From NCBI GenBank assembly GCA_038087875.1, contig CM075988.1, forward strand, positions 17,734,001 to 17,798,000: a stretch of DNA of 64,000 nt, given 5' to 3'. This stretch comes from Malacoraja senta (taxonomy: Eukaryota). The position numbers and the translations under genes were made by a program. The notes beneath the pieces were generated by a model. That model saw only the letters and a program-made list of their open reading frames with translations, searched no databases and had not been told where the DNA came from. Shown in pieces: positions 21,946 to 44,613 of the stretch (position 1 is the first letter of the stretch; each line of letters begins with the position of its first letter).

Positions 21946-22103
21946 ATATTCAGTCTGAAGGAAGGTCTTGACCCGAAACATCACCCATTCCTTCTCTCCA
22001 GAGATGCTGCCTGTTACTCCAGCTTTTTGTGTCCATCTTCCGTTTAAAACAGCATCTGCAGTTCCTTCATACACATTATGATCAGCCTTACTTTTTCTTC
22101 CAG

Positions 22104-24157: not shown

Positions 24158-24249
24158 AACCCAACCTTACTGACTAAAGCACAAAACAGCTGCCCGATGT
24201 ATTGCAAGGAATCGCCCCGTAGCCTGGAGCAACAACTGCAGGAGCGCAG
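24158..24249 (+). CDS. SIK2: SIK2 coding exon (exon 14 equivalent)
   Basis: ttacag|AAC...GCAG|gtgaga; 92 nt; [30 protein letters not shown]. Confidence 0.93.
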
Positions 24250-24264
24250 GTGAGACCAGTGTGC

Positions 24265-24573
24265 GGCACAGTGGCGCACCAGTAGAGTTGCTGCTTTGCA
24301 GCGCCAGGGACCCCGGGTTCGATCCTAACTACGGGTGCTGTCTGTACGGAGTTTGTACGTTTTCCCCGTAACCTGCATGGGTTTTCTCCGGGAGCTCCAG
24401 TTTCCTCCCACACTCCAAAGCTGTACATGTTTGAAGACTAATTGGCTTCAGTAAAATTGTAAATTGTCCCTAGTAATAGTATTTGTAGAATAGTGTTAGT
24501 GTGCAGGGACTGCTGGTCGGTGCGGACTCTGTGGGCTGAAGAGCCTGTTTCCGCGCTGTATCACTAAACTAAA
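24265..24573 (+). mobile_element. Full-length HE1-type SINE
   Basis: ggcacagtggcgcaccagtagag..gggttcgatcc..ctaaactaaa; starts about 15 nt after the SIK2 exon 14 donor. Confidence 0.88.
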
Positions 24574-24964
24574 CCGATGTCTCGGGTGAGGCCAGTGATG
24601 TCACAGGTGGGGCCAGTGATGTCAAAGTTGAAAGAAGCTTCCCAGGTTAATGTCAATATTCTTATATCCCATGCCTAGGGCTTCCTCCAGTGGATGTCAG
24701 AGGTAATAGGGTACCCCAGTAGATGGGTCAGAGGTCATAATGTCCCTGAGGTCGGTCAGACATCAGGGTGCTGTGGATATGTTGATGTGAATCAGTGGAT
24801 GATCTTGTTTATTGTCGCGTCATGGAAGTACAAAGTACATGCCGCGCCAAAGTACAGTGAACATCTTGTTGTATTCCTTTGACCAGTGGGAAGCATTGTT
24901 GAAGCTTGTGTTTGTTGCTCCATGGTGTGTTGCTTCATGTTCTGTGTATTATCTTCCATTTCAG

Positions 24965-25529
24965 GTTGCAACTGAAGCACATGTTTCTCCAAAAACAGTC
25001 GCAGCTCCAGGCTTATTTCAACCAAATGCAGATTGCAGAAGGTTCCTACCCTCACCAAACTCAGCAAATGCCTGCAGCCCACCCTGAAGCCCAGCAGCAG
25101 CAGTTCAGTATACCCCGGCCTCTAAGCCCTATGCTGGAGCCCCCAAATCAGATGCAGTGTGACCCGTTCCTCAGCCAGCACTACAATCTGCAACTTTCCC
25201 TACAACAGGTGGGGCCGGTGCAGCAAACAGCGCAGCCTCCACTGCAGTCCCTGGATCAGCACCAACAACTCCTGCAGTTCCCTTACCAGCCTTGTGATGT
25301 GGTTGGACCCACTGCCCCAGAGCTGGGTTACCCAGAACAATGTCCCTACACTCTCAACCAAACCCAACAAGCTGCCCTGCCCTTGAATGAAAGTCAGGCA
25401 AACAAGGTTGCTGCTGACTCAGCAGAGACCTACAAGAACATGACTCTCCCTGAACTGCCTGCGCTCTTTGATTGTGAGATGATGGAGACAGTTGATAGCC
25501 AACATGGAGGCTATGTCCTGGTAAACTGA
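24965..25529 (+). CDS. SIK2: SIK2 last coding exon, Q/P-rich C-terminus
   Basis: tttcag|G TTG CAA; LQLKHMFLQKQSQLQAYFNQMQIAE...LFDCEMMETVDSQHGGYVLVN then TGA, matching the SIK2 C-terminus. Confidence 0.95.
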
Positions 25530-28500
25530 CTGAAATAGATTTTCAGTGTTACTTCAACAGAGAGAAGGGATGACAAGAAGAGAAATGGAAGTCAATTTAG
25601 TTTGTACATTTCAAGAAAATACTAAAATGGATGACTTGTATTCCATCTTAAAGCATTAGCTAGAAGAATGGAAATCAACGGTGTAGAATTGGCTCAGGCC
25701 AGGTCTCATTTGTTGAAACAATCGTCACGTGGTTCTGTTGGCCCCTGGTGCTGAGAAGACGAGAGGCAGGAGAGGCAAGTCTTAAAAAAAAAGAAGCAAA
25801 TGCACTTTCCTAAAAATGGCCCCAACCAATGTACCAGGTAACAAGCAGGCAACACTACATTGGAAGGGCGCAGAAGCAGAACAATTGGTTCTGCCAACAA
25901 AGCAATACGTCGCCAGGAAAGCTGGAGTTTAAGAGCTTACCATCCAAACGAAAAGTTGTCACTGAACACCCATGTACCTCCCTCACCCCTGGCCAATGCA
26001 ATCTACTTGGACAGACTGGGAAATGGGATGCCCTACACTGTGGAGCACAGCAAACAGAGTAACTGAGAGTGCTTCTCTGACACTGAGGTCTGGACATTGT
26101 AATCATCCCAGATCACTGAAAACAATGCTCAACACTTTTCATTTCTCACCAGAGGTTGTTGCTAGATTACAGTTAGCATTTTAGGATGGAAGTTTAAAAA
26201 ATATAGAATTGTTGAAAAGTGCCTCCTGCAGGGGCATTTTATCTCTGAATACCTCTGGATTCCCGAGGAGGTAATTAATGTGATAGTACTCGTTCAGTGT
26301 TTGCTTTTCCAAGGAATAATTCATTGTAATTTTGAATATGAGTTGCTGGTTGTTTATTGAAAGCTTTGTACACTTTACCTAGGGTTTTAGAAGTTATATG
26401 AGAAATAAGCTTTTGAAACAAACTGTTGCGTGAAGTGTGATGTGCTGTGCCTTTTTTGCTTCATTTAATTTAAAAGTAAAAGAAACACATTTCTGGAAAC
26501 TAGTTTGGATAAACAATGCCCCATTTATACTGGCAGGTTAACCAAAGTCACTTCAGAGTCTCAACTTCTGGGTCCGCCGTGTGGAGTCAGGACAAGGTCT
26601 TGCTTTGTGTTGAAATCGATCTGTATGTAAAGAGTAAAAAGCAATATTTATTAAATGTTTTCAAAAGATGATTGTACCATACATGTACTGCGACGGGTGT
26701 TTTGTGTACCATCGGAATAATCTCACTTCTCTTCCTCTTGTTGAAGTATTGTACAGGCAGCAAATGCTGATGATGCACTGGTCAGGGTATATTAGTTTGC
26801 GTGACCACCTGGCCTAGAATTTAGGTCAGCCGGACCTCCTGGATACAATGACCCTCATAATTGCCAGTTTATCATTGACAATTGGCATTTTACCATGATG
26901 AGTTAACACTATTGAAACTGCAGTCTGGATAATCACACCTCAAACCTTCTTCCCTGGGAATTAAATGCAAGATCTCTGAGCAGGCTGCACCAAGCAGAAG
27001 GCCTGGTAGGCGCAACACAGATGCATGCCTCCGGTGCATGTCAAATGCTTCGTGACGCTGTTTTATTTTATTTGCAATGTTCCTCTGCGTCAGATGGCCA
27101 ACAGAGCACTGTCTCTGTTGTTTTCTAAGTTCCGGAGTTTTGCAAAAAATCAATAAGCAACTTGCTCCAAGGCATTATCCTCGCTCCTAGGCTCATGCTG
27201 CTCTCTTTCATTCTGCTTTTCTTGTCCCACTTTCAATCGCATTCATTGACTTTCTAGCCGGACAGGGTGCAGGGTGGACAGAGGCAGGCTGTTTGCCCCT
27301 GCAGCGTCCTGGAGTAAACAGTATCTGTGATAGTCCTCCCTCCTCCACACCTCCTTCTCTACCCATTCCTCCCATCGCCATCACCTGGTCTCCATTGACA
27401 GTAGGAAGATGAATTCACGCCGTGTGTCTTCCAGACCTCCTGTGGAATTATGTGACCATTCACACCCTCAAGGAGACAACAGGAAGCCCTCTGGGCCTCC
27501 TCTCTGCTGCCTTCAGGTCAGTGGTGGGGCTGACCCATTGGATTCCCCTTTCTCAATGTCAGAATCTCCTCTCCACTCTTTCACACCAATCCCAGGCTGA
27601 AGGTGAGAAAAGTCCAGATTTCAAATCACAACCTGCTCCTCTCCAAAACCCTTTCCCACTATCTGACAATCAGGTACTAAATCCTGCCTGATAATGCTTT
27701 TTTTTTAAAACTTTATTTCTCTCAGCAATCAATATTACCATAAAACATTCTTAATGTGTTGTTCAACACCAATGTTACAGCAGAGGAATTTAATTTATTG
27801 TGTTTACTAACAACCTCTCTCCATGCACTCAGTACAATATGAGTTGGCTTTGGCTGTGACAACGTAACTCCTTTGAGAAAGATGTAATTGGTCTATAGCA
27901 TCAATCAGTGATACAGCCCTGGCTGCACTGGGTGATAATATTCTCTGTGGAGTATTGAACGCTGCAGTTTAATGTGTAACCTTCCAAACAGATAGGTTTG
28001 AAATTAGACCCGAACAGTGCTGCAAAATGAACAGCATCTGTGAGATGTGAACAGCCTTTCTCTGAGCCTTTGGTTCCTCAGTCACTTGTTACCTCATGAT
28101 ATTAAAGCTGTTTAATATGAGTGAATACCCAACACGTCCCCCAGTGTGTAGCCGGTGAGCTGATGCCCGTTCTATACACAATCTCCACAACATGTCCAGC
28201 TGAAACTCAGCTTCCTCGCCCCACACCTGCACCCGTATGGCAGTAGTCAGAGCACTTCACATCAGGAGCAGATGACACAGTCCATGGATTGATCCAGAGA
28301 CATTCACCATTCTCCTCAGCCAGGGGGCAAGAACCTGTTCCAGTGCCACCTTGGTTTTCATCTTCAACTTGTTTTCAAGAGACAAAAGAAGTCTATTATC
28401 TGATTTCTGATTTTGCTGTAGGAAGTGTTTTTACCTTTGTGATTTTTTTTCATACAATTAATACTTTGAAGAGACTTTGGTGCAATGTATAAAGGGTAAA

Positions 28501-29045
28501 GGTATACATGGAGATAAGTGCAATATGTGTGGTACATAGGATGCATTCTGTTAAATAGTTGATGCTTCAGAAATGCACTAGGTTCTATACGCTCTTGATG
28601 TATGGAAAAAGCTGCTTTTTTACAATTTGGTAATTAAAACAATAGTTGTTTCTACGATAAAGAGTGTGATACACCTTATGGACCTTGTGAAGAAAAGAAC
28701 ACTCTGGATACAATGAAGAACTGTGTTATAATTGTGTGATGCTGCCTTTTTCTGTCTGTAACTCGAAAGGAGAGAGTCGGCAGTCCCTGGTACCTCAAGA
28801 GCAAGTTTTTGTACGACTATGAAACAATGAGAGAGACACTTTTTTTGAACTATATGGCAGACTTCTGCACCAGACCACTGGAGAAGATGCTGAGATTATG
28901 GCAGTTTGATAAACAATCTTTGTACTGTTAACCAAAGGATAAGTTAAACAGGTAACTTCAAGGATCTAACTAAATGCAGTTCATGTATTGGTCCAAATCC
29001 CAGTTTGATTGAAGCAAGAATAAAGGCTGTAGTGTTTGAGCCGTG
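25530..29045 (+). other. SIK2: Putative long 3' UTR of SIK2
   Basis: Follows the stop codon; lacks the LINE/SINE fragments seen everywhere else; ends near an AATAAA followed by a GT-rich tract. Confidence 0.6.
29019..29024 (+). terminator. Candidate polyadenylation signal (AATAAA) of SIK2
   Basis: First canonical AATAAA I found after the stop; downstream gagtgagtgttttatg; repeats resume about 350 bp later. Confidence 0.5.
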
Positions 29046-29519
29046 GCACGGAGTGAGTGTTTTATGCGGTGGAATGAGGAGGCTTTGAGTTTGCAATCCT
29101 GCTTTGTGTTTCCCAAAACTCTGATCCCTGCTGCAGTTGCCACATTCACTGTCATCTGTCACCTAACCACTCCTTGCATGAGCTGAGAATTAGTATTTCT
29201 CTCTGAGCCTGACTGAAGCCCAGAGACCTCCCAAACCCATGCGTTGGGTCTGGTCGGTGTATACTGTGCTAGAACATTTGGTTAAGTCAGGCAGAGATGC
29301 AATGGCCCAGCTCATGAGTCGGTCATTGTGGCTTGTGCAGTTTGCTGATGTGATGACATGTGCACAGCAGCTCACTTTCCTGCTATCCTTTAAACTGTAA
29401 AGATACAGCGCAGAAACAGGCCCTTCGAGTCCACGCCGACCAGCGATCACCCGTACACCAGCACTATTCTACACACAATTTACAATTTGCAGAATCCAAC
29501 ACTTTGCACTTGTCAAAGT

Positions 29520-29940
29520 TAAATTCCAAGTGTCAATCTGGACAGTTCTGAAATAATGCCCCAGTCTATTGGCCACAGTCTTCACCGACATCTTCATCCT
29601 CTCAGTTCAATAGAGTTCTTTCCCCATCTGCTTCTGAAATCATGCCCCAGCCTATTGTCATCCAGGAAAAATAGGTCCACAGAAAGACCATCTCCTCACA
29701 TGGTCCCTTTACATCGATGCAGTGAATAAGAAAGCACATCAGCATATCTAGGCTTTTAGGTGCCTGAGAAGATTCAGCATGTCCATGAGGATTCTCTCGA
29801 AATACAGAAGTGCTATAGAAGGTGTTCTGATGGGGTACATTTCAGCCTGGTATGGTCTCTTGATCACTAGATCCTGCAGAGAGTAGTGAACACAGTCCAG
29901 TCCATCACAGGCTTGTCACCCTTCCATCCAGTCCATCTTC
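29520..29940 (+). mobile_element. Degenerate LINE RT C-terminal fragment, Rex1/Babar-like
   Basis: aagaaagcacatcagcatatctaggcttttaggtgcctgagaagattcagcatg resembles the KKAHQRLYFLRRLRRFGM segment recalled for this clade. Confidence 0.55.
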
Positions 29941-29951
29941 ACGGTGAGTCT

Positions 29952-30250
29952 TTAGTTTACTTTACTTCAAAGATACAGAATGGAAACAGGCCCTTCAGCC
30001 CACCGAGTCTGTGCCAACCAGCAACCATCCTGTACTCTAACGCTATCCTACACACGAAGGACATTTTTACAATTTTTACCAAAGCCGTTTAACCTGCAAA
30101 CCTGTACGTCTTTGCAGTGTGGGAGGAAACCGGAGCACCCGGAGAAAAACCCACATGGTCATAACTCCGTACATACAGCATCTGCAGTCAGGATCGAACC
30201 CAGGGTCTCTTGCGCTGTAAGACAGCAACTACCGCTGTGCCACTGTGCTG
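29952..30250 (-). mobile_element. HE1-type SINE
   Basis: Reverse complement of the 24265 element. Confidence 0.85.
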
Positions 30251-30289
30251 AATTATAAAGTCATACATCACAGAAACAGGCCCTTAAAC

Positions 30290-31500
30290 ATAAAAACATA
30301 GAAAATAGGTGCAGGAGTAGGCCATTTGGCCCTTTGGGCCAGCACCACCATTCAATATGATCATGACTGATCAACTCAAATCAGTACCCCGTTCCTGCTT
30401 GCTCCCCATATCCCCTGATTCCATTAGCCCTAAGAGCTACATCTAACTCTCTTGAAAACATCCAATGAATGCGCCTCCACTGCCTTCTGTGGCAGAGAAT
30501 TCCTCAGATTCACAACTCGCTGAGTGAAAAAGTTCTTCCTCATCTCAGTCCTAAATGGCCCACCCCTTATTCTTAAACTGTGATCCCTGGTTCTGGACTC
30601 CCCCAACATCGGGAATATTTTTTCTGCATCTAGCCTGTCCAATCCCTCAAGAATATTATATGTTTCTATATCTTCAGCCCAACTTGCCCATGCCCCATCT
30701 AAACTAGTCTAGGACTAGTTAAATGTGCTCGGGAAAGTTTCCTCCAGCAAATAAGGAGAGGGTTCCCACAGGGGAGAGGACAACACTTGATCTAGGCTTG
30801 GGAAATTGGGAGGGGAAAGTGGATGAAGTATTCCTGGATGAGCCTTTTGGGACCAGTGACCAGTGTTCTATTAGATTTAAGAGAGTTACGATCAGTTCAG
30901 AACATAGAACAGTACATCACAGGAACGGGCTCCTCAGCCCACAATGTGCCGAACATGATGCCAAGTTAAACTGATCTCATCTGTCTGGACATGATCCATA
31001 TTCCTCTATTCCCTGCACTTCTAGGTGCCTATATAAAATCCACTTAAACGCCACTATCATATCTGTCTCCACCACCACCCCTGGCAATGCGTTCCCAGCC
31101 CCCATTACATTCTGTGTAAAAAAAAACTTGCCTCGCACATCTCCATTAAATTCTCCCCTTCTCACCTTATAGCTATGCCCTCTAATGTTGGACATTTCCA
31201 ACTGAAGGAAAAGGTTCTGAGTGTCGACCCCATCTATGCCTCTCATCATCTTATCTACTTCTATCACGTTTTCCCCTCAACCTCCGACGTTCCAGGGAAA
31301 AAGTTTATCTGAACTCTCCCTGTAGCTGAAACCCTCTAATCCAGGCAGGTAAACCTCCTCTGCACCCTCTCCAAAGCCACCACATCTTTCCTATAATGGG
31401 GCAACCAGAACTGCACGTAATACTCCAAATGTGGCCACAACAAAGTCCTACAGAGCTGCATCATGACTTCCTGACGCTAATACTCAATGCCCCCTAGCAA
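30290..31500 (-). mobile_element. Cluster of CR1 3' fragments
   Basis: ORFs 30430-30642 and 30977-31267 match the CR1 ORF2 C-terminus (FFTQRVVNL, IVAFK..L.RHL). Confidence 0.88.
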
Positions 31501-33327
31501 TGAAGAAAACCATAACATCACATCAAATGGTGCAGCAGCCACAGGACCGACTGGACAGTTCTTCCCATTTTCTTTCATTTGAGAGGTGCTTGAGGGTAAA
31601 TCATTTCCAGGGAAAGATGGACGTGGATCACTCCTGAACTGGCATGGACCCGATGGGCCCAATGGCCTCCTCGCCACTCAAATTATCCTGTCATCCAGAA
31701 GTGTTATTGAGCACAGAGATCTGTCAGATGTAAGTTCATGTTCCATCAACACACTTGGAGGACTGGAATTAAAAGATCTGGGAGTAACTGCGGATGGCAG
31801 CACCACTGACAGTGATGGTGATTTAGAGAACAAAGCATGCACTGACTTTGGCTGTCCTTCCGTGTTCAGCTGCTGAACCCAGTCTCATTCCGATGTGGTT
31901 CTGCCTCGTCTGGCAGGTTGTTCAGATATCACACGATCACACATTACACGATCAAATCTCCAGGAATGCCTCCAAGCGGAGTTGGCAACCCTACTGAGAT
32001 TAACTAACTCTAAATGACTAGAGATTGAATTTGCAATTTTTTTCTGGTTGAGATAACTCAATTATACACCAATTTGGGCTTGCTGAGTCATCAGAGCAGC
32101 TGAACAGTAAGTCAGAGCTAATGAGCCACGTTGGATATTTTGAACTGATGTTTTCCAGAGGCCCCACATCACCCCTGGAATCGTAATGTCGGCTGAGTTG
32201 TCTCTTGCTCACTCCTTCAACCATAAGAGGGTGATGTTACACTTCATCTCCCTTGGGAAAAGTTATGAATTTTAGAACTATAATTAACTAATGTCATTGT
32301 ATTTTAATGATAGCTGCTAGCAATTATTGCGTAATATTTTGTTAACAAAATGTCTTTATTAATTAAACATAATGCATTCAATTCTTGAATACATTCAGCT
32401 ACAATCTGGCCATTGGGAGCCATGCTCTGGCTTTCCATTAGACATGTCCCATGTCAACCATTGTTTCCATTTGATCACAAAAGGACACATTTTCTGATAA
32501 CGTGAAACCCCCCAAAGTCATAAAGTCGTACATCATGGAAACGGACTATTCAGCCCAACACATGCCGTTCCTTCTGTCATATATGTTTAGTTTATTGTCA
32601 CGTGTACCGAGGTACAGTGAAAAGCTTTTTGTTTGCATGCTATCCAGTCAACGGAGAGACTAGACATGATTACGATCAAGCCACCCACTGATACAAGATA
32701 AAGGGAATTACATTTAGTGCAAAGTAATGTCTAATTAAAGACCAAGGGTCTCCAATGAAGTAGATGGTAGGTCTGGACCACCCTCTAGTTGGTGATAAGA
32801 TAGTCCAGATCACTCTCTAGTTAGTTTCTGTTAAGTTGGTGCTAAGATAGTTCGGTTGCCTGATAACAGCTTTTTGTTTGACTGTATGTGGTGGATGTAT
32901 GGAACAAGCTGCCAGAGGACATAGTTAAAGCAGGTACTATAACAGCATTTAAAAGACACTTAGGTATCATGGGGAAAGTGCATGAAGGATAAATGGCAAC
33001 GTCAGGTCTGCTCCAGCACTTACTTCACAAGAGTCTGTAAAGACTATGGTACAGGGAATGTTGTAAGTTCATAAAGTCACAAGGAATAGGAGTAGAATTA
33101 GGCCATTTGGCCCATCTAGTCTACTCCGCCATTCAATCATGGCTGATCTATCGCTCCCTCCTAACCCTATTCTCTTGGCTTCTCTCATAACCTCTGACAC
33201 CTGTACTAATCAAGAATCTATCTATCTCTGCCTTAAAAATATCCACTGATTTGGCCTCCACAGATTCACCACCCTCTGATTAAAGACATTTCTCCTCATC
33301 TCCTTCCTAAAAGAACGTCCTTTAATT

Positions 33328-33420
33328 CTGAAGAAGGGTCTCGACCCGAAACGTTGCCTATTTCCTTCGTTCCATAGATGCTGCCTCACCCGCTGAGTTT
33401 CTCCAGCATTTTTGTCTACC
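33328..33420 (+). mobile_element. Penelope-derived mini-element with a hammerhead-like core
   Basis: CTGAAGA-A-GGGTCTCGACCC-GAA-ACGT-T, then a tail like that at 48984-49048; flanked by tcctttaattct repeats. Confidence 0.8.
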
Positions 33421-33895
33421 TTCCTTTAATTCTAAGTTGCCATGTGCCAGTATGTAAGTCACGTCAGATGCTCGGGATCACCTGGTCAATTCTGGTCAAA
33501 GCTAATGGAAAACAACTTTGTGTTAATACCTGCTCAATTACAAGAGAGATTCAAGAGTGTTTTATTGTCATATGTCACAGATAGAACAATGAAATTCTTA
33601 CTTGCAGCAGCACAACAGACTATGAATACATTGAACAAGATTGAACAATCTCATTGTAAAGCCAGAATATATTCTAAATGGTTAGATGCGAAGGATTGTT
33701 GAGGTGTTACATTTCGTACAGTATTATGTCCAAGAGTCACTGGACGATTGATGGGGCAGGTTGCACTGACCTGGGCTGTATTTCAACGTGTGGAATCAAG
33801 TTACCATCAACTGAGGTGTCTCAGCATTAAGGAGGTTAATAAAATACTTCATTCATTGGAATTACACAACCCAGGATATTTTACTGAGTCAAGGA

Positions 33896-34200
33896 TGGCA
33901 GGCATACAGCGGTAGAGTTGCTGCCTTACAGCACCAGAGACCCAGGTTCAATTCTGATTACGGGTGCTGTCTGGATGGAGTTTGTACATCCTCCCAGTGA
34001 CCGCATGGGTTTTCTCTGGGTGCTCCGGTTTCCTCCCACATTCTAAGACGTCCAGGTTTGTAGGTTAGTTGGCTTTGGTAAGTTGTAAAATTATCCCTTG
34101 TGATTGTAGGTTAGTGTATGGGGTGATCGCTGGTCGGCGTAGACTCGGTGAGCCAAAGGGCTTCTTTCCAGGCTGTATCTCGAAAGTCTAAAAGTCTAAA
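33896..34200 (+). mobile_element. HE1-type SINE
   Basis: cagcggtagagttgctgccttacagc...aaagtctaaaagtctaaa. Confidence 0.85.
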
Positions 34201-34844
34201 GTGCAATGCATTCACACAATATTTACAATGTCCCGAATATTCTACCAGCAATTACGTTTGAGAAGTTGGGACACAGCCTGTCCTAGTGGTGAGGAGGTGC
34301 TGGCCAGTGCTGATCCCCACACAGGCAAAGCTGGTAAAGCAGTAAGTCCTGGGTTAGGGACAAACCACAGCAAGGACCACTGCATGCCTTTCCAGAGCTT
34401 TCTGGCAAACGTGCAGTGTAACAGGAGTGGGCGGTCCCTTGCAACGCTGAGGGAGTGTGCAGAGGACTGAAACCTCGACTGTACACGGAGGGTGTGACAG
34501 GGAGAGCCCAGCTCCCCAAGTGCTCTGGGAGAGCTGCCAAGCCCGGCGCTGGGACCTGTTGGAGAGTTCTTTGATGAGGCATGCTGTGACTTTGACAGGA
34601 AACCATTTGCCAGGATCCTGCTCACATACGTAGCCACTTGGGAACCGTCCATACACATCACTGACTGTAGACAGACACAAAATGCCAGACCCGCTGACTT
34701 ACTCCAGCATTTTGTGTCTACTTTTGGTGTTTCGACTGTGACTGTCGCCGGCAGTCGCCGAAAAAATTGCCTAAGTGGGACAGGCCCTTAACTCAGACAT
34801 TTAAAATAAAGAGTGCGTAACGTTGATTGCACAACGTAACTCAG

Positions 34845-35150
34845 GGCAGCACGGCGGTAGAGTTGCTGTCTTAAGCGACAGAGAAACGGGAACGATCCTG
34901 ACCACGGGTGCTGTCTGTATGGAGTTTGTACATTATCCCTGTGACTTGCATGGGGATTCTCCAGGTGCTCTGGTTTCCTCCCACACTCCAAAGACTTACA
35001 GGTTTGTAGGTTAATTGGCTTCAGTAAAAAATGTAAAATTGTTCCTAGCGTGTAGGATAGTGCTAGTGTATGGTAATCACAGGTCGGTGCAGACTCGGTG
35101 GGCCGAAGGGCCTGTTTCAGCACTGTATCTCTAAATGCTAATGTCTAAAG
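34845..35150 (+). mobile_element. HE1-type SINE
   Basis: ggcggtagagttgctgtc...ggccgaagggcctgtttc..tctctaaa. Confidence 0.85.
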
Positions 35151-35201
35151 TGATTGTGGGATATCATTTTGAGTACCAGTCAAAAGGAAGCTAACATCCA
35201 C

Positions 35202-35326
35202 CTGAAGAAGGGTCTCGACCTGAAACGTCACCAATTCCTTCTCTCCAGAGATGCTGCCTGTCCCGCTGAGTTATTCCAGCATTTGTGTCTGACTTTGGTG
35301 TAACAGTATCTGCAGTTCCTTCCTGC
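35202..35326 (+). mobile_element. Penelope-derived mini-element with a hammerhead-like core
   Basis: CTGAAGAAGGGTCTCGACCTGAAACGTC...gcagttccttcct; flanked by agctaacatccacct repeats. Confidence 0.8.
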
Positions 35327-35975
35327 AGCTAACATCCACCTTGTCAACACCCTGGTGCCCGGGTCACTGGGCAGAGGGCACCTGCTTTGCTGGATGTGCA
35401 GCCCCTCCTGCAGTCTGAAGGGGAGCAGTACCATCGTCCCTGCTCACAGCAGGAGCTGACTGCTGCCCATCTGTGAGCCATCATATCTGTTAGCTCTTTG
35501 ATTAACTTGAATAATTCATGGCTGCTGACAATGTTTAATACAGCGAGAGTGACGCACATGGTGACACCTTGGAGATAAGACTGTCTCAGTAAGCACCCTC
35601 TGATGTAATGAATGTATAATCCGCGCTCCCATGGCGAGAAAATATTAATATGCATTTTCATGGTGTTATGAAGTTGACTAATAAGATCAGTCACTACTTC
35701 TCTCATTAAAAAGAGCCTGCATTCACCTACATCAGGGACATATGTTCAGCTAACGATGAGTTTCTTCCTTGGAACAAGGAAAGTCACTTTAACCCTTTGT
35801 GTGCCCCCCTGTTTAACTGAAGTAGGAATCGTATCAATCACAGGATTGAGAAGGGCAATCCAGACCCATACTGATGCCTCCTGAAAGAAACATCAGGATC
35901 TTCTAGCTCTGAGTGTGTAGGCTGGAACTACAGGTGCTGATTTACACTGAAGATAGACGCAAAATGTTGGAGTAA

Positions 35976-36289
35976 TAGCCCTGTCCCACGGTACGAGTTC
36001 ATTCCAAGAACTCGCCCGAGTTTTAAAAAAAATCAAACTCGTGGTAAGCACGGAGAATGAACATAGCGGGTACGTCGGAGCTCGGGGACGTCTCTTAGCG
36101 CTAACGGCAGGTACTCGGGAAAACTCGCTAACGGCAGGTAAGCACGGGAAACTTGTGAAGATTTTTCAACATGATGATAAATGTCCACGAGAGCCCCGAG
36201 TACCGACGAGTGGCCATTACCGTAAATATCTGAGTCAGGGCAAACTCGGGAGAACTCTTGGAATGAACTCGTACCGTGGGACAGGGGTT
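35976..36289. mobile_element. Non-autonomous DNA transposon (PIF/Harbinger-like MITE)
   Basis: Terminal inverted repeats ccctgtcccacggtacgagttcattccaaga / tcttggaatgaactcgtaccgtgggacaggg; TAA on both sides (35973-35975, 36290-36292). Confidence 0.85.
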
Positions 36290-36509
36290 TAACTTAGCGA
36301 CCCCTGAACGGTCTCGACCCGAAACGTCACCCATTCCTTCTCTCCAGAGACACTGCCTGTCCCGCTGAATTACTCCAGCATTTTGTGTCTATCTTCTCTC
36401 TCTGATGTGAGGACAATGACATGGGCCACAGTGAAGCCTCGTGATCTCCAGAAACATGGTGTCCGGGATGGTTGGTCAAAAAAACAAAGTATGAAATTTG
36501 GGGATCGTA

Positions 36510-36870
36510 GAGTCATAGTGTGGAAACTGGCCCTTCGGCCCAACCAACCAAAACCGATAAACATGTCCCATCTACACTAGTCCCACTAGTCTGCGTTTAG
36601 CCCACATCCCTCTAAACCTGTCCTATCCATGTACCTGTCTAATTGTTTCTCAAACACTGTGATAGTCCCGGCCTCAACTATCTCCTCTGGCAGCTCGTTT
36701 CATACACCCACCACCCTTTGTGTGAAAAATGTACCCCTCAGATTCCTGTAAAATCTTTTCCCCTGCACCTTAAACTTATGTCGTCTGGTTTACGATTCCC
36801 CTACTCTGGGCAAGAGAATCTGTGCATCTACCCGATCTCATGATTTTATACACCTCTATAAGATCACCCC
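36510..36870 (-). mobile_element. CR1 3' fragment
   Basis: Nearly the same sequence as 20060-20365. Confidence 0.85.
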
Positions 36871-37146
36871 TCCACAGAGTCTGGACAGATGCTGGGAACA
36901 GGTGACCCTGCACCTCTTGTGAAGCACATTGGAGTCAGTGTCTGGTTTCCTAGTTTCTTGCTTCACCCAAGAGTCAGGAGTGTTTACTTGTTATATACTG
37001 TACACCTACACCAGGAACGGAACAATTACTTTAGCACTTGCTGCAGCTTTCAAGGCCCATTGACGCACCAACACAACAAATTAAGATACAAAAAAACAAA
37101 ATACAATGCGTTATCAGTTACACCTGATAATTCCCCTGTACTGATG

Positions 37147-37360
37147 GGCAGTCACGGTGGCGCAGCGGTAGAGTTGCTGCCTTATAGCAAAATGCAGCGC
37201 CAGAGACCCGGGTTCGATCTGTATGGAGTTTGTACGTTCTCCCCGTGATCTGCGTGGGTTTTCTCCGAGAACTTCGGTTTCCTCCCACACTTCAAAGACG
37301 TACAGGTTTGTAGGTTAATTGGCTTGTTTAATTGGTTTGATAAAATGTTAAATTGTCCAA
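37147..37360 (+). mobile_element. HE1-type SINE, 3'-truncated
   Basis: ggtggcgcagcggtagagttgctgcc..gggttcgatc. Confidence 0.82.
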
Positions 37361-38344
37361 GTTGGCGATATGCAGAGTACTGCCCTGCCGACTACAAAAT
37401 TCAGAAGGTTCAGAAAGTTGTAGTGGAGTTAGTCCAAGCACTGGAGGGTGTTCAGCAGGCTTGACTTTTAACCCAGAAATAGGTGAGAAATTGTTACTTA
37501 ACTAATTAAATAACTGAATCTTGAGTGAAACACAAAGTGCTGGAGAACTCAACAGGTCCAGTACCATTTGTGCAGGACATGGATCATACGTTCATAAGTG
37601 ATAGGAGCAGAATTAGGCCATTCGGCCCATCCCGTCTACTCCGCCATTAAATTTTGGCTGATCTATCTCTCCCCTTCAACCCCATTCTCCTGCCTTCTTC
37701 CCTTAACCCCTGACCCGTACTAATCAAGAAAATCGACGATGTTTCAAGACTGAGGAAGCTCACCCCCACCCGCTGAGTTACTCCGGCACTTTGTGTTTTA
37801 ATTATCTAACAGCCTTGACTTTTGAAAATGTTAGTGGAGAGGACCGTGAAATCTCAGAAGAAGGGATGATTTGTTTAAGCTGAGGTAAGGAGGAATTTCT
37901 TAGGGTTGTGAATCTTGGAATCTTGGAATAAAACAGGAAGTATGGGAGAGCTCGGCATAATTAATCAGAATTTTCCATGAATGATTGTCGATCTGAAAAG
38001 TGCCGACTCTTGAATACCTGGCAATCTGAAGGCTGATGCTTTATCTCTCTAGCTGAATCTGCCTCTCTGCTTGAGCGTTTCCAAAATGTTCTCATTTTTC
38101 TTTCAAATTTCCAACAGCTGGAGTATTTCCCCCTTTTGTGAAACTCTGCAATTCCCTGCCGGAAGGTTGTTGAGTGAGAATATTCACATCGGAGATCAAA
38201 CGATTGGTTGGGTTTGGGTGAAGGGGTAATAAGGATGAGGAGATGAGGCGGGTTTAGATCAGTCAGATTCTTGCCCAGTGACAACCACCACGAGGGCTGG
38301 TCCACTTCCAGTTTCTACACAGCTGCTGAATTCCATACAGAACA

Positions 38345-38705
38345 GTGAAAGGCTTGGATAGAGTGGATGCGGAGGATGTTTCCACTAGTGGGAGAGTCAC
38401 GGACTAAAGTTCACAGCCTCAGAATTAAAGGATGTTCTTTTAGGAAGGAGATGAGGAGAAATTTCTTTAGTCAGAGGGTGGTGAATCTGTGGAATTCTTT
38501 GCCACAGAAGTCTGTGGAGGCCAAGTCAGTGGATATTTTTAAGGCAGAGATAGATAGATTCTTGATTAGTACGGGTGTCAGAGGTTATGGGGAGATGGCA
38601 GGAGAATGGGGTTAGGAGGGAGAGATAGATCAGCCATGATGGAATGGCGGAGTAGACTTGAAGGGCCAAATGGCCTAATTCTACTCCTATTACTTATGAC
38701 CTTAT
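38345..38705 (+). mobile_element. CR1 3' fragment
   Basis: ORF 38367-38615 RMFPLVGESRTKVHSLRIKG...FFSQRVVNLWNSLPQ. Confidence 0.9.
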
Positions 38706-38714
38706 GAATTCCTG

Positions 38715-38950
38715 TGTACAAAGGAACTGCAGATGCTGGTTGATACTAAAGATAGCTACAAAGTGCTGGAGTAACTCAGCAGGTCAGGCAACATCTCTGG
38801 AGCAAAAGGATAGGTCATGTTTTGGGTCAGAACCCTTCTTCAGACTCAATCTATCTACAGACTGAAGAAGGGTCCTGACCAGAAACGTCACCCGTCCTTT
38901 TTCTCGAGATGCTGTCTGAACTACTGAGTTACTCCAGCGCTTTGTGTCGA
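38715..38950. repeat. Inverted pair of Penelope-derived terminal repeats (hairpin)
   Basis: Same architecture; centre acccttcttcagact...agactgaagaagggt. Confidence 0.85.
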
Positions 38951-40284
38951 ATTTCTCTGGCGACACCCAAACCATTACCGTACATCCAACCGTACACCTA
39001 CATATCGCACAGGTTATTGAGATTGGACAGGACAGGACACGGGATGGTATAATGTGGACAGTTACAGCCCGCTGTCGTCCAGAACACCGCCACTTCTTGC
39101 TGTAGAAGGTGTGAAGAAGAGTGCCGACCCGAAAACATCAGCTGTCCATCTGCTTCAGAGAAGCTGCCTGACCCGCCGAGTTACTCCAGCACTTTGTGTC
39201 TATCTTCACTTTGAGGATGTGCCTGAGGGATGCACACACTGGGACCTCACTCTGGATACAGTAAGGAGTGACCCACACAGTCACTGACCGGTGAGCTTTA
39301 CTGACGCAGATTGAATTACCTGCCAACAATGCCAGAACCTACCATCGATCAGTCGTTGAACAATTCACCATTTTTTGTTCCACTTCGACATTGATACACA
39401 AAATGTGGCACTTACTGATGAAGAGCAGCTGGAATCACGGGGCCTGGTGTTTGCCTGGTTTGCTGGTGTGGACAATGGATATCCAGTCCAGGCCAGCCAG
39501 TGGGCAGTGCTTTCAGCCCAGTCAGAAGACAATGGTTCAAATCCCACTCCCCATGAAAATTCAGTGAAAAGCTTTGCTGGAGATGGGCATGGCTGGGATT
39601 TAACTTTCTGTACATGCCAGACCTTTGAAGACAAAAACTAACGAGTCATTAAGGCTTCACAAAAGCTCAGGTTGCTCAGGTCATTCCACTTTCACTCTAT
39701 CTCCCTTGTGTGGGAAGGAACTGCAGATGCTGGTTTAATTGAATGAATATTAAGTAAAAAGAGAGAGAGTGAAGATGGATGCAAGAAGCTGGAGTAACTC
39801 GGCGGGACAGGCAGCATCTCTGGAGAAAAGGAATGGGTTCCTTTCTCTGCCATCCTCTCCCACTCCCTCCCATTCCTTCTCTTGAATTGAATACTTTATT
39901 GTCACATGTGACAAGGCACAGTGAAATTCTTTGCCTGCAAATAGTTTGCCCATATAAAGGGCGCTTACAAAGTTACAAATCCCCCCCCCACCGTGACAGG
40001 TCCCTTTTTGTTCTTCATCCTGCCCCTCCCCCCACACCCTCCCACCTCCCTCAAGGCAGTCCCCCCACACACTCTCCAGAGATGCCGTCTGTCCTGCTGA
40101 GTTACTCCAGCCTTTTGTGTCCATCTTCACTCTCTCTCTTTTTACCTAATATTCATTCAATTCGTTTAGTAGGAAGCTTCAGGGGAGCATCAGTCCCACT
40201 GTGACTTAGCGATGTAATGTTGACTGAAGATTAGCCCATTCCAGTTCAGGCCCACAGCAGAGTCCGGAGCCCAACATCAAGAAT

Positions 40285-40826
40285 CAGTGGAGTACTGGGG
40301 AAGGGCTGCACTATCAGCAGCGCTGTCTTTAGTTTTTAGTTTAGTTTAGAGATACAGCGCGGAAAAAATACCCCTCGACCCACTGGGTCTGCACAGACCA
40401 GCGATCTCCGTACACTAACACCATCCTACACAGAACAGGAACAATTTACAATTCTACCAAGCCAATTAGCTCAGTCTGCAAAAATGTCAGTGTCGACCCG
40501 AAACATCACGCATTCCTTCTAAGCAGAGATGCTGCCTGTCCCACTGAGTTGCTCCAGCATTTTGTGTCTATCTTCGCCCACAAACCTGCATGTCTTTGGA
40601 GTGTGGGAGGAAACCAGAGCTCCTGGAGAAAACCTACGCAGGCCAAGGGGAGAACAGACAACACCCGTAGTCAGGATCAAACCCGGGTCTCTGGCACTGT
40701 AAGGCAGCAACTCTACCGATGTGTTACTGCCCTGCCTCAAACTGTTGTCAAAAGAGATGTGAAACCAAGGCCCACATTTCTCTTGAGTGGATGTGAAATG
40801 TTCCCAAGGGCATCATTATCAAGAAG
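40285..40826 (+). mobile_element. Ancient Deu-domain SINE (SacSINE1-like), split by the HE1 insertion
   Basis: cagtggagtactggggaagggctgcactatcagcagcgctgtcttt (40285-40330) resumes as gagatgtgaaaccaaggccc..gtggatgtgaaatgttcccaagggca..aagaag; resembles my recollection of the Deu domain; tail-like copies at about 1400-1550 and 53130-53300. Confidence 0.6.
40331..40735 (-). mobile_element. HE1-type SINE with an internal Penelope-derived mini-element (about 40472-40575)
   Basis: Reverse-complement SINE halves flank gacccgaaacatc..gagttgctccagcattttgtgtctatc. Confidence 0.82.
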
Positions 40827-41760
40827 TTTTGTTTTGGAGTACGATTTGCAGATACTATCACAATGTTTAAGAAACATTTTGACAAGTTCATGGATAGGAT
40901 AATAATTCCTATTATTAATTAATAGGAATTAATAGTATAATTACTATTATACTAAATAATAGTATTAGAGGGATACGGGCCAAACGCAGGCAGGTGGGAC
41001 TAGGGTAGATGGGTCAAGTTGGTTGGTGGGTAAGTTGGTCTGAAGAGCCTGTTTCCACGCTGTATGACAATAACTCTGAAAGTTGGGGAGTTATGTCTTG
41101 TCAGTGTTTACACCTCAATCAACAGCGTTTGTGTCATGGTTCAGCTGCCCGTTTAGTATCTGGGGCCTGACCCTTCGGCCCATCAAACCCGCTGCGATCA
41201 GCGATCAGCGATCACCTAACAATGTCTCTACCACTTGCCAAGGTACTCCACCCAGATGCCAATAGGCTGATCCAGGTTCCACTGGCCTCACTTAAGTGAA
41301 GATTTAGACTTTAGAGATACAGCACGGAAACATGCCCTTTGGCTCACCAAGACCACACCGACAAGTGATCTCCCCGTACACTAGCACACACTACACACTA
41401 GGGACGATTTACATTTTTTACTGAAGCCTTTGAACCTACCAGACCTGCCTGAGTTACTCTAGCACTTTGTGTATATGTATGGCTGTGTATCTGTCGATGT
41501 ATCTGCAATGTATAAAATACCACTTCACACAGGGTCATAGACCTGGTGTGCAGGAGCTTAGAGCAGCTGGTGAAGTAAGATGGGGGGTGGGTGGTGTATA
41601 TGTACAGCTATGTATTCCAGTCTGTGGAATTCTCTGCCTCAGAGCGCGGTGGAGGCAGGTTCTCTGGATGCTTTCAAGAGAGAGAGCTAGATAGGGCTCT
41701 TAAAAATAGCGGAGCCAGGGGATATGGGGAGAAGGCAGGAACGGGGTACTGATTGGGGAT

Positions 41761-44613
41761 ACATAGATACATAGAAAATAGGTGCAGGAGTAGGCCATTC
41801 GGCCCTTCGAGCCTGCACCGCCATTCAATATGATCATGGCTGATCATCCAACTCAGTATCCCGTACCTGCCTTCTCTCCATACCCCCTGATCCCTTTAGC
41901 CACAAGGGCCACATCTAACTCCCTCTTAAATATAGCCAATGAACTGGCCTCAACTACCCTCTGTGGCAGAGAGTTCCAGAGATTCACCACTCTCTGTGTG
42001 AAAAAGGTTTTCCTCATCTCGGTCTTAAAGGATTTCCCCCTTATCCTTAAGCTGTGACCCCTTGTTCTGGACTTCCCCAACATCGGGAACAATCTTCCTG
42101 CATCTAGCCTGTCCAACCCCATAAGAATTTTGTACGTTTCTATAAGATCCCCTCTCAATCTCCTAAATTCTAGCGCGTATAAGCCAAGTCTATCCAGTCT
42201 TTCTTCATATGAAAGTCCTGACATCCCAGGAATCAGTCTGGTGAACCTTCTCTGCACTCCCTCTATGGCTATAATGTCCTTCCTCAGATTTGGAGACCAA
42301 AACTGTACGCAATACTCCAGGTGTGGTCTCACCAAGACCCTGTACAACTGCAGTAGAACCTCCCTGCTCCTATACTCAAATCCTTTTGATATGAAAGCTA
42401 ACATACCATTCGCTTTCTTCACTGCCTGCTGCACCTGCATCCCTACTTTCAATGACTGGTGTACCATGACACCCAGGTCTCGCTGCATCTCCCCTTTTCC
42501 TAATCGGCCACCATTTAGATAATAGTCTGCTTTCCTGTTTTTGCCACTAAAGTGGATAACCTCACATTTATCCACATTATACTGCATCTGCTAAACATTT
42601 GCCCACTCACCCAGCCTATCCAAGTCACCTTGCAGTCTCCTAGCATCCTCCTCACATCTAACACTGCCCCCCAGCTTAGTGTCATCCGCAAACTTGGAGA
42701 TGTTGCCTTCAATTCCCTCATCCAGTTCATTAATATAAATTGTAAATAGCTGGGGTCCCAGCACTGAGCCTTGCGGTACCCCACTAGTCACTGCCTGCCA
42801 TTGTGAAAAGGACCCGTTTACTCCTACTCTTTGCTTCCTGTTTGCCACCCAGTTCTCTATCCACATCAATACTGAACCCCCAATACATAGATACATAGAA
42901 AATAGGTGCAGGAGTAGGCCATTCGGCCCTTCGAGCCTGCACCGCCATTCAATATGATCATGGCTGATCATCCAACTCAGTATCCCGTACCTGCCTTCTC
43001 TCCATACCCCCTGATCCCTTTAGCCACAAGGGCCACATCTAACTCCCTCTTAAATATAGCCAATGAACTGGCCTCAACTACCCTCTGTGGCAGAGAGTTC
43101 TAGAGATTCACCACTCTCTGTGTGAAAAAGTTTTTCCTCATCTCGGTCTTAAAGGATTTCCCCCTTATCCTTAAGCTGTGACCACCCCTTGTCCTGGACT
43201 TCCCCAACATTGGGAACAATCTTCCTGCATCTAGCCTGTCCAACCCCATAGAATTTTGTACGTTTCTATACCGTGTGCTTTAAGTTTGTATACTAATCTC
43301 TTATGTGGGACCTTGTCGAAAGCCTTCTGAAAGTCCAGATACAACACATCCACTGGTTCTCCCCTATCCACTCTACTAGTTACATCCTCGAAAAGTTCTA
43401 TAAGATTCGTCAGACATGATTTACCTTTCGTAAATCCATGCTGACTTTGTCCAATGATTTCACCACTTTCCAAATGTGCTGCTATCCCAACTTTAATAAC
43501 TGACTCTAGCAGTTTCCCCACTACCGATGTTAGATTAACTGGTCTGTAATTCCCTGTTTTCTCTCTCCCTCCCTTCTTAAAAAGTGGGGTTACGTTTGCT
43601 ACCCTCCAATCCTCAGGAACTACTCCAGAATCTAAACAGTTTTGAAAAATTATCACTAATGCATCCACTATTTCTGGAGCTACTTCCTTAAGTACTCTGG
43701 GATGCAGCCTATCTGGCCCTGGTGATTTATCGGCCTTTAATCCATTCAATTTACCCAACACCACTTCCCGACTAACCTGGATTTCACTCAGTTCCTCCAT
43801 CTCCTTTGTCCCGCGGTCCCTGCTATTTCCGGCAGATTATTTATGTCTTCCTTAGTGAAGACGGAACCAAAGTAGTTATTCAATTGGTCCGCCATATCCT
43901 TGTTCCCCATGATCAATTCACCTGTTTCTGACTGCAAGGGACCTACATTTGTTTTAACTAATCTCTTTCTCTTCACATATCTATAAAAACTTTTGCAGTC
44001 AGTTTTTATGTTCCCTGCCAGTTTTCTTTCATAATCTATTTTCCCTTTCCTAATTAAGCCCTTTGTCCTCCTCTGCTGGTCTCTGAATTTCTCCCAGTCC
44101 TCTGGTATGCTGCTTTTTCTGGCTAATTTGTACGCATCATCTTTTGCTTTGATATTATCCCTGATTTCCCTTGTTATCCACGAATGCACTACCTTCCCTG
44201 ATTTATTCTTTTGCCAAACTGGGATGAACAATTTTTGTAGTTCATCCATGCAGTCTTTAAATGCCTTCCATTGCATATCCACCGTCAACCCTTTTAGAAC
44301 TAATTGCCAGTCAATCTTGGCCAATTCACGTCTCATACCCTCAAAGTTACCTTTCTTTAAGTTCAGAACCGTTGTTTCTGAATTAACAATGTCACTCTCC
44401 ATCCTAATGAAGAACTCAACCATATTATGGTCACTCTTGCCCAAGGGGGCACGCACAACAAGACTGCTAACTAACCCTTCCTCATTACTCAATACCCAGT
44501 CTAGAATAGCCTGCTCTCTCGTTGGTTCCTCTACATGTTGGTTTAGATAACTATCCCGCATACATTCCAAGAAATCCTCTTCCTCAGCACCCCTGCCAAT
44601 TTGATTCACCCAA
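41761..44613 (-). mobile_element. Young 5'-truncated CR1-clade LINE (end of endonuclease plus reverse transcriptase), interrupted by an internal insertion
   Basis: ORF pieces 43788-44642, 43231-43800, 42591-42971 and 41853-42587 carry CR1 motifs [32 protein letters not shown] and [13 protein letters not shown]; frameshift near 43800; stop near 42591; microsatellite-like 3' tail at 41761. Confidence 0.95.
42886..43270 (-). mobile_element. CR1 3' end fragment inserted inside the RT of a near-identical CR1
   Basis: Near-identical to 41762-42144; interrupts the peptide LKAHG|IGGSVL. Confidence 0.92.

What the first reader, a model, noticed from the sequence alone, without database searches (positions are those of the whole stretch)
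33328..33355. Dispersed family of minimal hammerhead-ribozyme-like motifs in Penelope-derived mini-elements
Seen: CTGAAGA-A-GGGT(CTCG)ACCC-GAA-ACGT-T/C. This is the CUGANGA and GAAA core boxes around a stem II hairpin, with palindromic ACGT replacing helix III and a following H nucleotide. Copies lie at 33328, 35202, 38862 and 48956, at 53423-53450 (minus), and in decayed form near 7915, 9001, 11010, 16389, 21955, 36304, 39111, 40495, 44764, 62200 and 63028. The 48956 copy sits just downstream of a GIY-YIG Penelope ORF, which ties the family to a PLE terminal repeat. Established: PLE pseudo-LTRs carry minimal type I hammerheads lacking helix III that cleave as dimers. Inference: about 15 copies in 64 kb, many in introns of two essential genes, suggest a very high-copy retrozyme-like family that may be uncharacterised in batoids. 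Caveats: stem I pairs only about 2 bp (gt/ac) and there is an extra A after A9, so most copies may be inactive.
Basis: partly seen in the sequence, partly recalled or inferred. Interest (0 to 1): 0.75.

Follow-up and report, generated by a model that had tools for sequence, protein, structure and literature searches.

The report
Penelope retrotransposon stubs with minimal hammerheads
This very common 95-135-base repeat, in what is likely a skate or ray genome, is the end piece of a Penelope-like jumping gene and carries the tiny hammerhead-ribozyme motif already described for such elements; no copy in the window keeps every part of that motif, so the copies likely do not cut RNA and are likely ordinary transposon debris.

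Summary
The motif is real and more abundant than reported: 37 segments in 26 loci, none in shuffled controls. It is the terminal repeat (pLTR) of a Neptune-type Penelope-like element (PLE). Two loci join it to GIY-YIG remnants. Eleven loci are head-to-head pairs, 9 of them with a ~36-nt tail on one arm only, a published PLE signature. The layout matches the published minimal hammerhead of PLEs, and the 'extra A' is a conserved feature of that motif, not a defect. Of 18 copies spanning the core, 2 keep it intact, and both have lost stem I; neither lies in a mapped intron. Among copies, the core is no better conserved than its flank. In public contigs, 5' edges pile up 2-3 nt before the core, mostly behind a G. 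Most stubs are therefore likely run-off copies of capped, uncleaved PLE RNA, not retrozyme circles. No head-to-tail array lies in the window; such joints are rare in the runs. Cleavage is untested. This scan has noted the same kind of element at least 8 times on other shark or ray DNA. Verdict: new member of a known kind, low interest.

The parts
33328..33355 (+). Minimal hammerhead motif: CUGAAGA box, unpaired A, 4-bp stem II with 4-nt loop, GAAA box, palindromic ACGU, H17=U; predicted cut after 33355; stem I only 1 bp
33328..33421 (+). Solo short (tail-less) pLTR stub, flanked by a 12-bp TSD (33318-33329 / 33422-33433) that overlaps the first 2 nt of the motif
35202..35326 (+). Solo tailed stub with intact core letters (G.U closing pair, stem I 0 bp) and a 15-bp TSD (35189-35203 / 35327-35341)
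48320..48352 (-). Inverted, 5'-truncated, tail-less pLTR arm at the 5' end of the PLE remnant
48354..48432 (-). Locally inverted piece of the PLE ORF (linker upstream of the nuclease); contiguous with ~48440 in other copies
   Evidence: opposite-strand joints 48359/48362 to 48437-48442 in all 4 runs
48435..48839 (+). Broken 3' end of a PLE ORF (frameshifts): Cys-rich linker plus C-terminal GIY-YIG endonuclease
   Evidence: (74% to Leucoraja P0001, 64% to Mobula P0002)
48840..48952 (+). Pyrimidine-rich 3' UTR / upstream part of the pLTR
   Evidence: loose ends before 48950-48951
48951..48957 (+). Initiator-like TCAGTCT; inferred transcription start at A48953, 3 nt before C3
   Evidence: 5' edges at 48953/48954 preceded by G; start site inferred, Inr consensus from my own knowledge
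48956..48983 (+). Hammerhead motif in the PLE's 3' pLTR: core letters intact, 2-bp stem I, palindrome broken by a CpG change
49049..49085 (+). ~36-nt optional tail (short end near 49048, long end near 49084)
62124..63126 (.). Second, older PLE remnant: inverted arm (motif, UTR, ORF end on minus strand) plus GIY-YIG fragment 62590-62733, UTR and motif at 63028 on plus strand
7815..8035 (.). Head-to-head pair, tail on + arm
8870..9095 (.). Head-to-head pair, tail on - arm; + arm starts behind a G
10943..11039 (-). Solo short stub with an 18-bp TSD
12695..12762 (+). Solo stub truncated inside the motif, 14-bp TSD
16109..16480 (.). Two abutting head-to-head pairs (16109-16260, 16267-16480)
16935..16991 (+). 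Decayed copy of a more divergent family with different stem I (GTT/AAC) and stem II letters
22592..22742 (.). Head-to-head pair, both arms lacking the motif; - arm starts at the predicted cut site
35919..36407 (.). Head-to-head pair split by a later 330-nt insertion with terminal inverted repeats
38717..38969 (.). Head-to-head pair including the listed 38862 copy, tail on - arm
39716..40130 (.). Head-to-head pair whose arms share a private 3' insertion; split by a later insertion
53353..53456 (-). Solo short stub; G8 mutated
3637..52448 (.). Further solo or fragmentary copies at 3637(-), 21949, 34683, 37522/37767 (pair), 39108, 40471, 41436, 44759, 45646, 52333

Best explanation
The repeats are the terminal-repeat (pLTR) ends of an abundant GIY-YIG Penelope-like retrotransposon, likely of the Neptune clade, and carry that element's minimal hammerhead motif; most were likely made when the element's reverse transcriptase primed 95 or 135 nt into a capped, uncleaved transcript and ran off its 5' end, and the decayed copies likely do not self-cleave. 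Step 1 (inferred): Pol II starts at the Inr-like TCA(+1)GT, 3 nt upstream of C3, which leaves at most 3 nt for the 5' strand of stem I. Step 2 (inferred from the Anolis Poseidon element): the endonuclease nicks the target and RT starts internally at one of two sites, giving short or tailed 3' ends. Step 3 (inferred): RT copies through the intact motif to the cap and leaves an extra G. Step 4 (structure shown, mechanism inferred): the 5' junction closes either by microhomology with a 12-18-bp TSD, or by adding an inverted second arm with the other 3' end. Step 5 (shown): copies then decay at a similar rate in core and flank, fastest at CpGs, three of which lie in the motif. In the master element the motif would cleave, if at all, only as a dimer through the ACGU palindrome or with help from the PLE protein (literature, untested here).
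For: GIY-YIG remnants lie upstream of the motif at 2 independent loci, 48435-48839 and 62500-62733. 11 of 26 loci are head-to-head pairs; 5000 random placements give a mean of 4.3 and a maximum of 10, and 6 abutting pairs compare with a mean of 0.66 and a maximum of 5. The tail is on exactly one arm in 9 of 11 pairs, on neither in 2 and on both in 0, as described in PMC8557442 and PMC3846280. 4 of 15 solo loci have 12-18-bp TSDs (null P(>=11)=0.005). The motif fits the published consensus including the unpaired nucleotide after A9, the G10.1-C11.1 pair and the palindrome. In public contigs, 46-71% of the summed depth at C3 is gained between 48951 and 48955 in 4 of 4 runs. Loose ends at 48953/48954 have random AT-rich flanks and a consensus last letter G in 9 of 10 displayed run-by-place rows. 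6 of 6 displayed joints landing on 48953 carry letters ending in G (binomial P about 0.0009). Untemplated 5' G is the accepted mark of cap copying in L1/SVA (PMC4859970). In Anolis, uncleaved RNA is the dominant insertion substrate and two internal RT starts define the tail (PMC11167929). Non-CpG divergence is 20 of 213 in the core against 150 of 1436 downstream (P=0.72), and 41 of 146 at the motif's CpG columns.
Against: No RT-coding sequence is in the window, and no tree was built, so the clade rests on the linker motif and homologues. The window fragment itself has no Pfam hit, and the homologues score below the GIY-YIG gathering cut-off. The G signal comes from consensus letters of contig ends in truncated tables (24 of 3088 and 24 of 152 rows shown); the share of G is not given, 1 of 10 rows ends in A, and joints landing on 48952/48954 do not all end in G. 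In the window only 4, perhaps 5, copies show G before the +1/+2 edge; 3 TSD-flanked copies that reach the edge do not. Two minus arms (22653, 39844) begin exactly at the predicted cut site, which could mean some templates were cleaved. The pyrimidine tract plus CAG before the motif could also be a splice acceptor. None of the 11 pairs shows a TSD, whereas some rotifer pairs do.
Confidence: 0.8

Rival explanations
1. The ~97/135-nt unit is a non-LTR retrozyme: head-to-tail arrays are transcribed, cleave as dimers, circularise and are reinserted by PLE proteins; the dispersed copies are its offspring.
For: Head-to-tail joints 49048 to 48951/48953 and 49084 to 48950 occur in all 4 runs (for example 11, 15 and 10 contigs for 49084 to 48950 in X1, X3, X4). 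Retrozymes are described as PLE pLTR derivatives, with a family in one chondrichthyan genome (bioRxiv 2026.07.22.740005). The majority letters at 48968 and 48980 in the runs restore the loop and the palindrome.
Against: 0 head-to-tail arrays among 26 loci. Tandem joints have depth of order 10^2 against 10^7 over the unit. Edges sit before the motif rather than being permuted at the cut site. The motif is minimal, not canonical, and the unit is shorter than the ~170-400 nt reported. Partial PLE tandems give the same joints. 8 of 9 Xenopus dimers did not cleave in vitro.
Confidence: 0.08
2. Same PLE origin, but the sharp 5' edge is a reverse-transcription stall or fold-back at the short TCAG-T-CTGA palindrome, or a splice acceptor, rather than a capped start.
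For: Palindromes at inverted junctions are read as self-priming in rotifer PLEs. Two + arms start CAGA-CTG, the fold-back form (38862, 16206). A pyrimidine tract ending in CAG precedes 48955, and the D. virilis intron ends at helix I.
Against: It does not explain the G before +1/+2. Upstream loose ends are heterogeneous (agreement 0.31-0.35), not a shared exon. A spliced start would begin at 48955, not 48953/48954.
Confidence: 0.1
3. Some copies are active or co-opted intronic ribozymes that affect SIK2 or PP2A-A pre-mRNA.
For: 21 segments lie within the two gene spans; 48956 keeps all core letters on the sense strand of a PP2A-A intron.
Against: The 2 core-intact copies lie outside mapped introns and lack stem I. 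No strand bias inside genes (8+/7- and 3+/3-). No excess conservation of the core. In pairs the motif is buried in a long hairpin (about -110 to -160 kcal/mol). In 5 folded native copies stem II has probability 0.41 or less, and the hammerhead dimer is 7-10 kcal/mol worse than the best cofold.
Confidence: 0.02

Closest known systems
Minimal hammerheads (min-HHR) in pLTRs of metazoan PLEs (Cervera & De la Pena 2014, PMC4209133)
   Same: CUGANGAH box with one unpaired nucleotide, G10.1-C11.1, GAAA, palindromic ACGU without helix III, UH; position 3' of the ORF; mostly single dispersed copies, some as close opposite-strand pairs.
   Different: Stem II is 4 bp and stem I 2 bp, at the short end of the published range. 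No cartilaginous fish is in their 56-motif alignment. They report thousands of motifs per genome; the density here (26 loci in 64 kb) would imply far more if the window is typical (extrapolation).
EN+ PLE insertion units, Neptune clade (PMC8557442, PMC3846280)
   Same: C-terminal GIY-YIG, Cys-rich linker, 5' truncation, inverted truncated pLTR, 30-40-bp tail at one end, short TSDs, Inr-like sequence in the pLTR.
   Different: 24 of 26 loci show no ORF remnant by tblastn. TSDs are seen on solos, not on pairs. Clade not tested by RT phylogeny.
Poseidon element PAc of Anolis (PMC11167929)
   Same: [quoted passage not shown]
   Different: Different clade. PAc activity and protein-assisted cleavage were shown in vitro; nothing is shown here. 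The cap-G edge is not described in the parts I read.
Metazoan non-LTR retrozymes (PMC7229834; bioRxiv 10.64898/2026.07.22.740005)
   Same: Non-coding, hammerhead-bearing, pLTR-derived, many monomers.
   Different: Retrozymes are head-to-tail arrays, typically with canonical type I hammerheads and abundant circRNAs; here there are solos and head-to-head pairs, a minimal motif and no RNA evidence.

Membership tests
PLE minimal hammerhead (min-HHR) | Core boxes CUGANGA, GAAA and UH | tested here: met
   Family majority and 4 of 18 spanning copies keep all core letters
PLE minimal hammerhead (min-HHR) | Unpaired nucleotide between 9 and 10.1, and G10.1-C11.1 closing stem II | tested here: met
   A in 22 of 24 copies; G/C are the majority letters; published consensus
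PLE minimal hammerhead (min-HHR) | Palindrome at 15.1-16.1, no helix III | tested here: met
   ACGU in 7 of 18 spanning copies; most others carry CpG-type changes; majority restored in the runs
PLE minimal hammerhead (min-HHR) | Helix I | tested here: inconclusive
   2 bp in the family (U-A or U.G, plus G-C), 3 bp in one divergent copy, 1 and 0 bp in the two core-intact copies; published examples are mostly 3-5 bp with a few of 2
PLE minimal hammerhead (min-HHR) | Located in the pLTR of a PLE | tested here: met
   2 loci
PLE minimal hammerhead (min-HHR) | Core conserved with covarying stems across families | tested here: inconclusive
   No excess conservation among dead copies; no outside families obtained; one divergent copy hints at covariation
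PLE minimal hammerhead (min-HHR) | Self-cleavage as a dimer or with protein help | not testable with these tools
   Energy model does not favour the active dimer; needs an assay
EN+ Penelope-like element, Neptune clade | C-terminal GIY-YIG endonuclease | tested here: met
   64-74% identity to proteins that hit PF01541 below the cut-off, ORF ends after the domain; fragment alone has no Pfam hit
EN+ Penelope-like element, Neptune clade | CX2-5CxxC linker between RT and EN | tested here: met
   C-x4-C-x2-C in P0001 and P0002; split by a local inversion in the window; feature per PMC8557442, shared with Nematis
EN+ Penelope-like element, Neptune clade | PLE-type RT and placement in the Neptune clade | not tested
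   No RT in the window; P0002 has an RT-like YIDD stretch by my reading; no tree built
EN+ Penelope-like element, Neptune clade | Inverted truncated pLTR and one-sided 30-40-bp tail | tested here: met
   11 pairs; tail on one arm in 9 of 11; about 36 nt
Non-LTR retrozyme | Head-to-tail tandem array with a hammerhead in each unit | tested here: not met
   0 of 26 loci; rare tandem joints elsewhere in the runs
Non-LTR retrozyme | Canonical type I hammerhead with 6-bp helix I and loop-loop contacts | tested here: not met
   Helix I is 2 bp or less; the 2026 preprint also admits minimal motifs
Non-LTR retrozyme | Expressed as circular RNA | not testable with these tools
   Only contigs were available

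The most novel reading that the evidence does not exclude
Each 97/135-nt stub carries an internal Pol II start, the hammerhead and both RT priming sites, so it may be a self-propagating SINE-like unit. Its head-to-tail dimers, seen as rare joints in the runs, may cleave and circularise into retrozyme RNAs smaller than the ~170-400 nt reported, making it one of the most abundant ribozyme-bearing repeats in a vertebrate genome.
Probability: 0.1. Interest if true: 0.55.

Novelty: new member of a known kind. Interest (0 to 1): 0.2.

Why it matters
The pairing of minimal hammerheads with PLE terminal repeats is established, so the family adds a lineage rather than a principle. Its use is as material. 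The role of PLE hammerheads is still open, and this family offers a very large set of natural insertions whose 5' edges can be counted as capped-start, cut-site or random. If the cap-G edge holds, it shows in genomic data that PLE RNA is mostly copied uncleaved from a start 3 nt before the ribozyme core, which matches the Anolis in vitro result. The frequent head-to-head pairs are also a large predicted source of intronic double-stranded RNA.

Tried and rejected
No whole genome is held for this window, so no assembly-wide count was possible. Rfam: no hammerhead hit at E<=10. A motif scan and a protein scan of viral contigs found nothing. A metagenome scan for the downstream motif gave 55 loci; none has the hammerhead upstream, only 2 score weakly on the pattern itself, and none has a PLE protein match, so I treat all 55 as chance. 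Cross-family covariation could therefore not be tested. Pfam and NCBIfam: no hit for the window fragments. No RNA holder was listed among the sequencing runs, and contigs show neither ends nor expression. The second read-laying on a 51-nt stretch returned no variant table, so no per-position spectrum was obtained. No ALG9 match and no PP2A-A exon 1 were found. Rejected: the extra A as an inactivating lesion; a single palindromic master element (pair spacers are unrelated); intronic regulation. Lunse et al. (dimer cleavage) is not held; I saw only a review's statement and reference entry. Earlier-findings searches by sequence and by place returned nothing; one more did not complete. A paper search for cap-derived G with five terms returned 0.

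Full report
Observation. The motif at 33328-33355 is as described. Six near-exact copies are found against none in shuffles. An HMM from nine window copies finds 37 segments against none in 10 shuffles and the reversed window. They form 26 loci and 5.4% of the window. Rfam has no hammerhead match. The host genes are SIK2 (coding exons 4100-25526) and the PP2A scaffold subunit A (exons found 47198-61435), both on the plus strand. The closest named SIK2 is from Pristis (83%) and the closest named nuclease fragment from Leucoraja (74%), so the genome is likely a batoid. PP2A-A exon 1 was not found and may lie in the N gap. The copies at 33328, 35202 and 38862 lie between the mapped genes.

Origin. 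The copy at 48956 follows a broken ORF end with a C-terminal GIY-YIG-type nuclease, 74% identical to P0001 and 64% to P0002. Both homologues hit PF01541 below the curated cut-off and carry a C-x4-C-x2-C linker, the Neptune/Nematis feature named in PMC8557442. A second, older remnant lies at 62124-63126, with the motif on both inverted arms around a GIY-YIG fragment. The repeat is thus a PLE pLTR end. No RT is in the window and I built no tree.

Insertion anatomy. Eleven of 26 loci are head-to-head pairs. Random placement gives a mean of 4.3 and never 11 in 5000 trials; six pairs abut, against a mean of 0.66. A tail of about 36 nt is on exactly one arm in 9 of 11 pairs, on neither in 2, on both in none. 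This is the published PLE signature of an inverted truncated copy and a one-sided 30-40-bp tail (passages of PMC8557442, and PMC3846280). In Anolis the tail is the stretch between two internal RT start sites (PMC11167929, parts 1-2 of 4). Spacers between arms are unrelated, while by eye the two arms of a pair share subfamily letters, and the 39716/40072 arms share a private insertion. Each pair was therefore likely built at insertion from one template. Four of 15 solo loci have 12-18-bp TSDs; no pair shows one.

The hammerhead. The layout matches the min-HHR consensus of Cervera and De la Pena (PMC4209133; main text parts 1-2 of 4, supplement parts 1-2 of 3): an unpaired nucleotide after A9, G10.1-C11.1, and a palindrome in place of helix III. 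The 'extra A' is expected. That paper also notes that most motifs are single and some lie close on opposite strands. Of 18 copies spanning the core, 4 keep all core letters and 2 (33328, 35202) also keep stem II and the palindrome. Those two start at C3 inside their TSDs and have 1 and 0 bp of stem I. 48956 keeps a 2-bp stem I but has lost the palindrome. No copy in the window meets every feature. Non-CpG divergence is 20 of 213 in the core and 150 of 1436 downstream (P=0.72); the motif's CpG columns diverge at 41 of 146. This is neutral decay, which says nothing against function in the master element. One divergent copy at 16935-16991 has other stem I and stem II letters that still pair, a single hint of covariation. 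Folding does not favour the active form: stem II probability is at most 0.41 in five native copies, the hammerhead dimer is 7-10 kcal/mol worse than the best cofold, and pairs form long hairpins that bury the motif. Published min-HHRs cleave weakly as dimers (review passage) or only with the PLE protein.

Abundance and edges. Of 24 listed runs I laid 7 different ones, from six coded organisms, all as contigs. Three runs laid 115,520-132,941 contigs on 48200-49200. In X1, summed depth is about 10^7 over the repeat against under 50 on the unique flank; the tool warns that this is no copy number. Majority letters restore the loop and the palindrome at 48968 and 48980. 3' ends fall near 49048 and 49084. 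At the 5' side, 46-71% of the depth at C3 is gained between 48951 and 48955. Loose ends at 48950-48951 continue into pyrimidine-rich UTR variants. Those at 48953/48954 continue into unrelated AT-rich DNA, and their consensus last letter is G in 9 of 10 displayed run-by-place rows. Six of six displayed joints landing on 48953 carry letters ending in G. I looked for this after two earlier notes of the scan proposed it. An untemplated 5' G is read as cap copying in L1 and SVA (passages of PMC4859970). A48953 is the +1 of an Inr-like TCAGT (Inr consensus recalled; an Inr-like TCACT is noted in rotifer pLTRs, and an internal promoter in D. virilis, passages of PMC2377424). Limits: the tables are truncated, the share of G is not given, one row ends in A, only 4-5 window copies show the G, and two arms begin at the predicted cut site.

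Mechanism. The best reading is that internal priming 95 or 135 nt into a capped, uncleaved PLE transcript yields complete short copies that end at the transcription start. A start 3 nt before C3 also caps stem I at 2-3 bp. The PLE origin and anatomy are shown; the start site, priming and cap copying are inferred; cleavage is untested.

Retrozyme reading. The window has no head-to-tail array. Such joints exist in all four runs (49048 to 48951/48953, 49084 to 48950) but at depth of order 10^2. Retrozymes are defined as tandem arrays (passages of PMC7229834; bioRxiv 2026.07.22.740005, parts 1-3 of 5). That preprint found some in one chondrichthyan genome, with a mean consensus of 363 bp; its supplements were not seen and may bear on whether this family is already recorded.

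Novelty. I found no paper describing this family: searches, and a term search of the 2014 supplement (one of its two files could not be read). PLE expansion in whale shark introns is reported (passages of 10.1101/443036). Repbase and Dfam were not searchable. The scan's own notes list eight similar findings on other shark or ray DNA; these are unchecked AI notes and not independent evidence. Verdict: new member of a known kind; interest 0.2.

Noticed in passing
window 35976-36305, and a related end near 34770-34790: A 330-nt insertion with long terminal inverted repeats and TAA-like flanks splits a head-to-head pair; it looks like a PIF/Harbinger-type MITE (label recalled, not tested).
   Followed up: no
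window 46467-46666: A 200-N gap followed by GC-rich DNA; PP2A-A exon 1 was not found elsewhere and may be in the gap.
   Followed up: partly
window 25526-47198: SIK2 and the PP2A-A gene are both on the plus strand here; from memory the human orthologues are convergent. No ALG9 match was found in the window.
   Followed up: partly
window 41853-44666 (-), 46386-47132 (-), 13455-13865 (+): Broken CR1/L2-type LINE ORF2 pieces (label recalled from the translations).
   Followed up: no
window 48354-48440: A short piece of the PLE ORF is inverted between the inverted pLTR arm and the direct ORF remnant; public contigs show the two pieces contiguous in other copies.
   Followed up: yes
window 22653 (-) and 39844 (-): Two arms begin exactly at the predicted cleavage site; a weak hint that a minority of templates were cleaved.
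   Followed up: partly
window 44676-44860: One copy sits in a TA/CA microsatellite, which also explains the weak Rfam microRNA hits; microsatellite bias is reported for Neptune.
   Followed up: no
window 34670-34730: A very short inverted arm (about 12 nt) abuts a truncated plus-strand copy, probably a twelfth pair below the HMM threshold.
   Followed up: no
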